The notes under the pieces are model-generated. The model was not told the origin of the DNA. It made no database searches and worked only from the letters and a program-made list of their open reading frames with translations. The translations under genes were made by a program, and so were the position numbers. This document shows, one piece after another, positions 54,875 through 56,205 of a DNA stretch of 64,000 bases (positions within the stretch are counted from its first letter, which is position 1; every line of letters starts with the position of its first letter). This DNA is from Eledone cirrhosa (Eukaryota), in contig OZ024748.1 of assembly GCA_964016885.1 (NCBI GenBank), positions 21,018,001 through 21,082,000 on the forward strand, given 5' to 3'.

Positions 54875-54882
<8 letters not shown>

Positions 54883-55268
54883 TAAAATAACAGATTAAAG
54901 TTTAAGCCAAGAATCGCTGCTTTCACCCTTAACGGGATCTTCTGAAACTAACAAAGTCAATCTGTAAACACAGAAGTGGATATTGACAGTTGAGTCAAAA
55001 CCATAGCAACACTGGACCTATCGATACATCAATACTATATTGTACTGCACTATATATATATATAGTAATAATAATAAATTTGATGACTAAAATCCAAAGA
55101 GGGCTCGATAAGGATAAATATATATCAAATATATAAGAACCGTAGAGCAAATATTTATTAAAATAACAGATTAAAGTTTAAGCAAAGAATCGCTGCTTTC
55201 ACCCTTAACGGGAACCCTTTAAGGGTGAAAGTAGCGATTCTTTGCTTAAACTTTAATCTGTTATTTTA

Positions 55269-55306
<38 letters not shown>

Positions 55307-55883
55307 TAAAATAACAGATTAAAGTTTAAGCAAAGAATCGCTGCTTTCACCCTTAACGGGATCTTCTGAAACTAACAAAGTCAATCTGTGAACGCAGAAG
55401 TGAATATTTTAAAAAACGTTGCAACCGGAGGAAGACAGGAAGACGATACCTTGGTTCGTGGAAACGTTCCCTGGCAAAGAACGGGTCTCCGACTTCAGCT
55501 ATACCATTTACGTGGTTTTGTCTTTGCGTGCAATTGTTCTCAACGCTCCACATATGACGTATTATCTTCGTTTTTTCCGTTCATTGCCAGAGAACGTCTC
55601 TATGAACCACCTAAGAGAACATTAGTCTACCATAAACGTGGTTCTGTCTTTGCGTGTAATTGTTTTTCACCGCTCCTATTAATGACGTATTATATTCGTT
55701 TTTTCCCTTTCTTTGCCAGGGAACCTTTCCACGAACCAAAATATGGTCTTCCTGTCTTCCTCCGGTTGCAACGTTTTTTAAAATATTCACTTCTGCGTTC
55801 ACAGATTGACTTTGTTAGTTTCAGAAGATCCCGTTAAGGGTGAAAGCAGCGATTCTTTGCTTAAACTTTAATCTGTTATTTTA

Positions 55884-55921
<38 letters not shown>

Positions 55922-56205
55922 TAAAATAACAGATTAAAGTTTAAGCAAAGAATCGCTACTTTCACCCTTAAAGGGTTCCCGTTAAGGGTGAAAGCAGCGA
56001 TTCTTTGCTTAAACTTTAATCTGTTATTTTAATAAATATTTGCTCTACGGTTCTTATATATTTGATATATATTTATCCTTATCGAGCCCTCTTTGGATTT
56101 TAGTCATCAAATTTATTATTATTACTATATATATATATAGTGCAGTACAATATAGTATTGATGTATCGATAGGTCCAGTGTTGCTATGGTTTTGACTCAA
56201 CTGTC
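54875..56205. mobile_element. Nested foldback array of family M; ~500-bp inverted arms 54985-55483 / 55709-56205
   Basis: Six copies of the TATTTATTAAAATAACAGATTAAAGTTTAAGC module within the arms, plus one at 54875. Confidence 0.85.
55817..55867 (+). ncRNA. Variant type I hammerhead (CAGAAGA core), family M
   Basis: AGTTT-CAGAAGA-TCCC GTTAA GGGT-GAAA-GCA GCGATTCTT TGC-TT-AAACT; same core at 55323-55373 and 54899-54949 (-). Confidence 0.6.

What the first reader, a model, noticed from the sequence alone, without database searches (positions are those of the whole stretch)
54875..56205. Palindrome of palindromes: 1.2-kb nested foldback built from a hammerhead element (family M)
Seen: the outer arms (54985-55444 vs ~55747-56205) look identical by eye, including internal (TA)n tracts. 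Each arm contains a smaller palindrome centred on stem II (CCCTTAACGGG-AA-CCCTTTAAGGG, ~55202-55225). The innermost ~40 bp of the arms are diverged, and the spacer holds two diverged ~125-bp direct repeats. Inference: iterative snap-back synthesis primed on pre-existing imperfect hairpins. The event is very recent or an assembly artefact.
Basis: partly seen in the sequence, partly recalled or inferred. Interest (0 to 1): 0.7.

Follow-up and report, generated by a model that had tools for sequence, protein, structure and literature searches.

The report
Fold-back scar in Penelope insertion cluster
Several broken ends of one jumping-gene family sit head to head in a TA repeat, and 461 bases, including 67 bases of single-copy neighbouring DNA, were copied backwards next to them, likely by a recent DNA fold-back repair; this is a known kind of scar, not a new element.

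Summary
The palindrome is real in the assembly: 54984-55444 and 55746-56206 match at 461 of 461 bases; the inner 41 bases differ at 5. All repeat-derived parts, including the 'spacer' with its 126-bp repeats, are 3' ends of one Penelope-like retrotransposon family with Hydra-clade protein motifs. Head-to-head pairs are its normal insertion form (42 of 92 sister loci), so the inner palindromes need no iterative snap-back. The 'hammerhead' has the topology but a CAGAAGA core and no Rfam match. The outer palindrome is different: both arms hold two insertions, their private mutations and 67 bases found nowhere else in the genome, and natural pairs differ at 2.2%. It was therefore copied from local DNA after the insertions, likely by fold-back synthesis primed on an older Penelope hairpin, at a break likely opened by a later insertion. 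Three more single-copy inverted duplications, with aged arms, turned up in 1.76 Mb, arguing against artefact. No reads cover the locus. The same outcome is described for LINE-1; this scan reported a similar Penelope scar in another genome. Ordinary, mildly informative.

The parts
54800..54877 (.). (TA)n tract, left insertion target
   Evidence: sequence
54875..54984 (-). 5'-truncated, tail-less 3' end of the Penelope-like element ('old left M'), outside the perfect arms; joins the left arm with 1 base of microhomology
   Evidence: 96% to the arm copies; haplotype CTT at three distal sites
54984..55444 (-). left perfect arm, 461 bases, inferred to be the fold-back copy
   Evidence: identity shown; direction inferred
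54984..55050 (-). inverted copy of the single-copy flank
   Evidence: only two matches in the 3.0-Gb genome, both here
55299..55444 (-). copy of the element's 3' end (M plus 36 upstream bases)
55445..55485 (-). 41-base remnant of an older inverted arm; 1 private change
55485..55745 (+). body of the element's 3' repeat region with its native two 126-bp repeats, a private 14-base deletion and 4 private changes in 55705-55745
55746..56206 (+). right perfect arm, inferred template, contiguous with the right flank
   Evidence: direction inferred
55746..55891 (+). tail-less 3' end of the element, young sub-haplotype; 55746-55888 identical in 4 other loci
55802..55875 (+). hammerhead-like type I topology with non-canonical core CAGAAGA (55822-55828); activity untested
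55914..56139 (.). short head-to-head insertion: tail-less end 55914-55976 on minus (2 private changes), tailed end 55977-56139 on plus ending in (TA)7
56140..56206 (+). single-copy flank, duplicated into the left arm
56207..56227 (+). right outer boundary: 20 of 21 bases covered by 7-mers from the 45 bases before it; unexplained
   Evidence: post hoc statistic

Best explanation
This is a cluster of truncated Penelope-like retrotransposon ends in a TA repeat, around which 461 bases of local DNA, including 67 single-copy bases, are duplicated in reverse, likely by one fold-back repair event primed on an older head-to-head pair of the element. Shown: the parts, their family, the perfect arms, the single-copy flank. 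Inferred order: (1) an ordinary head-to-head pair (54875-54984 plus 55445-55485 facing 55485-55745) formed an imperfect hairpin; (2) a short second pair landed in its TA tail; (3) at a break, likely cut by the element's own endonuclease during a later insertion, the free 3' end of the bottom strand annealed to the other arm of that hairpin, was extended over the right arm, the second pair and the flank to 56206, and rejoined at 54984 with 1 base of microhomology, losing about 36 bases. Which insertion opened the break (the 54875-54984 copy or the young 55746-55891 copy) is not resolved. No function is implied.
For: One family, RT then GIY-YIG-type ORF upstream and co-oriented with these ends. 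Head-to-head pairs in 42 of 92 sister loci. Arms identical at 461 of 461 where 28 natural pairs differ at 85 of 3846 (binomial 3e-5). Arms share 2 changes seen in none of 46-49 sister copies and 67 bases with only these 2 genome matches, so the template was this locus's DNA, not an element RNA. The left join falls inside the element, 36 bases past the end of perfect identity, as a return to the old arm would. The right copy is a haplotype mosaic: 0 of 13 sisters with its distal letters have its proximal letters, 8 of 8 with the old left copy's letters do, and its distal 143 bases have no private change, fitting a late replacement. Analogue with clear direction at G000:C2:381666376-381666637. 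Same outcome modelled for LINE-1 ends (10.1101/2024.12.14.628481, passages).
Against: The right boundary looks like a templated patch (20 of 21 bases; 332 of 83184 background points, 1 of 98 beside GTT tracts), which fits the opposite direction. The proximal haplotype is common (35 of 50), so its fit to the old left copy is weak evidence. No tail-less/tail-less pair was seen among 43 sister junctions, so an extra step is needed. One of the three other single-copy inverted duplications (C14) has no evident Penelope end beside it, so the trigger need not be the element.
Confidence: 0.5

Rival explanations
1. Same DNA-templated fold-back on the same hairpin, but at a stalled replication fork or a TA cruciform break, with no new insertion as trigger (quasi-palindrome or ODIRA-type template switch).
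For: Geometry is the same. A single-copy inverted duplication without evident Penelope end exists at C14:10152892-10154283. Template switching at interrupted inverted repeats is documented (PMC10766183, passages).
Against: Does not by itself explain the haplotype switch at the arm boundary. In yeast ODIRA most repeats used span 40-80 bp and both junctions are fold-backs; here the loop is 219-301 bases and the outer join is not a fold-back.
Confidence: 0.22
2. Opposite direction: the left arm is the original, and a break in the right-hand copy was repaired by copying the left arm, then joined to the flank through short templated patches (polymerase theta type).
For: Patchwork at 56207-56227; explains the haplotype mosaic and the 4 private changes at 55705-55745, more than in any of 74 sisters; restores the tailed/tail-less rule.
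Against: Requires copying to stop within 1 base of the end of the 54875-54984 insertion by coincidence. The patch statistic was designed after seeing the sequence, and the flank is low-complexity.
Confidence: 0.13
3. Assembly or library artefact: chimeric fold-back reads or polishing made a perfect inverted copy.
For: Zero differences in 461 bases including TA tracts. No read set from the source could be examined.
Against: The centre is a 301-base asymmetric sequence and both outer ends run into different flanks, unlike a simple fold-back read (own knowledge). The assembly keeps mismatches in other arms of this family (85 of 3846). Three other single-copy inverted duplications have arms that already differ (1 of 192; 2 of 131; 98% over 107), so the class exists as aged DNA.
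Confidence: 0.09
4. The whole 1.2-kb unit is a mobile foldback element, or was written in one go from RNA by repeated reverse-transcriptase snap-backs.
For: Long-armed multi-copy foldback elements exist in this genome; the family makes inverted ends routinely.
Against: The arm ends are single-copy; no target duplication flanks the unit; the inner 41 bases of the left arm carry the family letters at the 4 sites where the right arm is private, so they were not copied from it.
Confidence: 0.06

Closest known systems
Hydra-clade Penelope-like elements and their inverted 5'-truncated copies with a one-sided tail (Craig et al. 2021, PMC8557442: passages, the Hydra section, search of File S1; Frangieh et al. 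2024, PMC11167929: parts 1-2 of 4)
   Same: C-terminal endonuclease, DKT, CxCX5C linker, no CCHH, CxxC and CxH at the end, (TA)n targets, inverted pairs with a tail at one end.
   Different: Tail is about 100 bases, not 30-40; hammerhead core is non-canonical; RWH for RWK; the described structures do not include host flank in both arms.
LINE-1 insertions with inverted duplication of genomic DNA from self-annealed, resected break ends (bioRxiv 10.1101/2024.12.14.628481, passages)
   Same: A retrotransposon end joined to an inverted duplicate of adjacent genomic DNA; self-annealed 3' end primes synthesis.
   Different: There 2-bp microhomology and small hairpins in somatic cells; here a long pre-existing element hairpin, a Penelope-type element, and an assembled (presumably inherited) locus.
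ODIRA and quasi-palindrome template switching (PMC10766183, passages; quasi-palindrome papers seen as search listing only)
   Same: Template switch at a pre-existing interrupted inverted repeat extends arm identity outward.
   Different: Only one fold-back junction and a duplication, not an origin-containing triplication; longer loop.
[quoted passage not shown]
   Same: Type I topology in the pLTR, sense to the ORF, extra base between position 9 and stem II region.
   Different: U4 is A in 40 of 45 sister copies and none has the canonical core; a U4A variant is not mentioned in the parts read.

Membership tests
Penelope-like element (endonuclease-bearing) | RT followed by GIY-YIG-type endonuclease in one ORF, upstream of the terminal repeat | tested here: met
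   621-aa open frame in L247 with YRDD and VY..YIG motifs; atlas neighbours 0.95-0.99 carrying HTH_animal, GIY-YIG, RVT_1; co-oriented with the window's ends in most loci, inverted pieces in others. Pfam and PDB sequence scans gave nothing.
Penelope-like element (endonuclease-bearing) | pLTR on both sides of the ORF, 5'-truncated and inverted copies, one-sided tail | tested here: met
   L251 and L253 have the repeat before and after the ORF; 43 head-to-head junctions, 32 tailed/tail-less.
Hydra clade | DKT motif, CxCX5C linker, CCHH absent, CxxC and CxH near the end, (TA)n targets | tested here: met
   Read from translations against the description.
Hydra clade | RWK motif | tested here: inconclusive
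   RWH seen in one copy, L251.
Hydra clade | Placement in the clade on an RT tree | not tested
   No reference sequences were fetched.
Canonical hammerhead ribozyme | Core CUGANGA ... GAAA ... UH with G10.1-C11.1 | tested here: not met
   CAGAAGA in 40 of 45 sisters, canonical in 0; U-U at the base of stem II; hammerhead fold -11.7 against best fold -15.7 kcal/mol; no Rfam hammerhead among 42 matches at E up to 10.
Canonical hammerhead ribozyme | Self-cleavage | not testable with these tools
   Needs an in vitro assay.
Foldback or MITE-type DNA transposon | Several genomic copies with the same termini and a target duplication | tested here: not met
   Arm ends match only this locus; outer flanks unrelated.
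ODIRA inverted triplication | Two fold-back junctions at short inverted repeats, centre copy inverted, three copies | tested here: not met
   Flank is present twice; outer joins are not fold-backs.
Retrotransposon-associated inverted duplication | Break made by the element's endonuclease at the same time as the duplication | tested here: inconclusive
   Compatible with the join at 54984 and with the young distal haplotype; timing not shown.

The most novel reading that the evidence does not exclude
Penelope integration itself routinely rewrites host DNA in this genome: new copies land in the TA tails of older ones, anneal to them by homology, and their break ends fold back on old hairpins to duplicate host flanks in reverse, at roughly one site per megabase (thousands genome-wide); and this Hydra family spreads with a hammerhead whose core carries U4A.
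Probability: 0.25. Interest if true: 0.5.

Novelty: new member of a known kind. Interest (0 to 1): 0.27.

Why it matters
As a single locus it is a passive scar. It shows how Penelope head-to-head insertions can seed perfect palindromes that take in host DNA, which are potential fragile sites, and it gives a dated footprint of an integration or repair step for an element class whose late steps are still unresolved (PMC11167929, PMC8557442). It would matter more only if a genome-wide count tied such duplications to young Penelope ends.

Tried and rejected
Read support: 12 public runs were listed; contigs of X5-X8 and X1 were laid. Central 'MITE': rejected, it is the element's own 3' region. 'Private' letters at 55780, 55787, 55800 proved to be a sub-haplotype shared with other loci. 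3' transduction from a donor elsewhere: rejected, no third copy. Rfam miRNA matches are below gathering score and reflect the hairpin only. Pfam and PDB sequences gave no hit for the ORF. Stem II priming: 32 of 135 mapped 5' ends fall in the 50 bases around the hammerhead-like core, but the queries bias this; left inconclusive. Two background arms that looked single-copy locally were multi-copy elements. A 13.3-kb palindrome on C6 was a head-to-head tandem array of another element, not a flank duplication. The retrozyme preprint 10.64898/2026.07.22.740005 (2 passages) added nothing. Searches for a printed case of Penelope-associated inverted flank duplication gave 0 papers, 3 unrelated ones and 2 unrelated ones; the library lacks most subscription papers. 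File S2 of PMC8557442 (hammerhead listings) was not held and may bear on the U4A core.

Full report
Observation. The window lies at G000:C8:21018001-21082000 in a 3.0-Gb assembly; it resembles an octopus-type genome by recalled repeat motifs, which I did not test. Alignment shows 54984-55444 and 55746-56206 are exact reverse complements over 461 bases, TA tracts included, followed inward by 41 bases with 5 mismatches and a 219-base asymmetric centre. The inner palindrome at 55213/55214 and the 82% direct repeats at 55502-55609 / 55628-55738 are as described. The next longest perfect arm in the window is 97 bases; in 664 kb of background 2 perfect arms reached 300 bases, this one and a multi-copy foldback element.

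What the pieces are. The centre and 'family M' are one high-copy repeat (2393 and 840 candidates, 40 scored each). In sister loci the centre runs on into M and then into a 100-base extension. Upstream, on the same strand, lies an ORF with an RT (YRDD) followed by a GIY-YIG-type endonuclease; L251 and L253 carry the repeat on both sides of the ORF. The protein has DKT, CNCRNRVDC (CxCX5C), one cysteine only inside the GIY-YIG core, and CxxC and CxH at the end, the marks of the Hydra clade in PMC8557442 (section read). Pfam and PDB scans were blank; atlas neighbours carry HTH_animal, GIY-YIG and RVT_1. No tree was built. Twelve family pieces lay in 600 kb outside the window, which extrapolates loosely to tens of thousands.

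The hammerhead. At 55802-55875 three helices can be drawn around CAGAAGA and GAAA, sense to the ORF, but that fold is 4 kcal/mol worse than the best one, the core differs from CUGANGA in all 45 sister copies read (40 CAGAAGA), no canonical core was found in 5 longer copies and Rfam finds no hammerhead. It is hammerhead-like, not a canonical member.

Inner palindromes are ordinary. Among 92 sister loci (best hits to window pieces, so not random; own-locus hits and one near-duplicate dropped) there were 43 head-to-head junctions in 42 loci; 32 of 43 pair a tailed with a tail-less end, as described for these elements (PMC8557442; PMC11167929). The pair 55914-55976 / 55977-56139 is such a unit. 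In 28 overlapping pairs the arms differ at 85 of 3846 sites and share minor alleles at 16 of 27 sites, against 15% for random copies, so most but not all pairs come from one RNA haplotype.

The outer palindrome is not ordinary insertion. Each arm holds one element end, a TA tract, the whole short pair with 2 changes absent from 46-49 sisters, another TA tract and 67 bases that match only these two places in the genome. Zero differences in 461 has probability 3e-5 at the natural pair rate; the upper 95% bound on divergence is 0.65%, against a median private rate of 1.0% per copy in 88 sisters. The template was therefore this locus's DNA, after the insertions had aged somewhat.

Mechanism. At the left end the arm joins a 5'-truncated copy (54875-54984) with 1 shared base, 36 bases past where perfect identity ends inward. 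This fits a bottom-strand 3' end folding back on the old hairpin, copying the right arm to 56206 and returning to the old left arm. The right copy is a mosaic: its proximal letters (CTT) occur in 0 of 13 sisters with its distal letters (TCC) but in 8 of 8 with the old left copy's letters, though also in 35 of 50 overall; its distal 143 bases are identical in 4 other loci. A late insertion annealing onto the older copy would give this, and could have supplied the break; so could the 54875-54984 copy, as in the LINE-1 model of a self-annealed reciprocal end joined to the RT end (10.1101/2024.12.14.628481, passages). These steps are inferred. Against my direction: 20 of the 21 bases after 56206 are covered by 7-mers from the 45 before (0.4% of 83184 background points, 1 of 98 beside GTT tracts; post hoc), 55705-55745 has 4 private changes where 74 sisters have at most 3, and no tail-less/tail-less pair was seen.

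Recurrence and artefact. In 1,464,000 background bases plus 291,944 bases of family loci I found 187 inverted repeats with arms of 50 or more bases at 94% or more. Of five candidates with locally unmatched arms searched genome-wide, three were single-copy inverted duplications: C8:21231462-21232962 (192 bases plus TA around Penelope-like pieces, 1 mismatch), C2:381666376-381666637 (72 bases plus TA and a repeat end, folded at a hairpin) and C14:10152892-10154283 (98%, no evident element end); two were multi-copy. About 15 other locally unmatched arms were not searched; most have a TA tract on one side and look like ordinary pairs. Aged arms in the other cases, and mismatches kept in family pairs, argue against a general assembly effect. 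Public contigs did not cover the locus, so it stands on the assembly alone.

Comparison and verdict. It works like LINE-1-associated inverted duplication and quasi-palindrome template switching; its parts are Hydra-type Penelope ends. I found no printed Penelope case in three searches. A real, recent, passive rearrangement of a known kind; interest 0.27.

Noticed in passing
G000:C8:21231462-21232962 (L117-L118): Second case: 192 single-copy bases plus TA duplicated in reverse around several Penelope-like pieces; right arm again runs into a GTT-rich tract, and the bases after it contain short repeats of the arm end.
   Followed up: partly
L102:1743-2032 (G000:C2:381666376-381666637): 131-base fold-back at a hairpin of another repeat, copying TA and 72 single-copy bases, then re-copying 28 bases of the centre; about 100 bases from a copy of this family.
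   Followed up: partly
G000:C14:10152892-10154283 (L238): 120-base single-copy inverted duplication, 1153 bases apart, with no evident element end beside it.
   Followed up: partly
G000:C6:30043476-30070762 (L187-L190): Palindrome with 13.3-kb arms at 99.9%, each a tandem array of a 4133-base unit; looks like a very young head-to-head array of full-length copies of another Penelope-like element.
   Followed up: partly
L153:5632-9496: Foldback element with a 726-base perfect stretch in its arms; 1071 candidates genome-wide, near-identical, many in inverted pairs.
   Followed up: partly
L066:1792-3143: 310-base tandem arrays arranged head to head, found on several contigs.
   Followed up: partly
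window 55822-55828 and sister loci: Family-wide CAGAAGA in place of the hammerhead core CUGANGA in a recently active family; two alternative 3' ends 100 bases apart, and a third end near reference position 1333.
   Followed up: partly
L029, L030, L014, L016, L037: Copies in which the ORF part is inverted against the 3' end.
   Followed up: no
window 10007-10683, 32381-32395, 41253-41701, 47635, 1700: Other inverted pairs and canonical CUGANGA..GAAA motifs of other families.
   Followed up: no
window 18990-22828: 41-base tandem array, about 94 copies, 94% matches.
   Followed up: no
window 57484-57567: Lone, more diverged (89%) piece of this family's tail.
   Followed up: no
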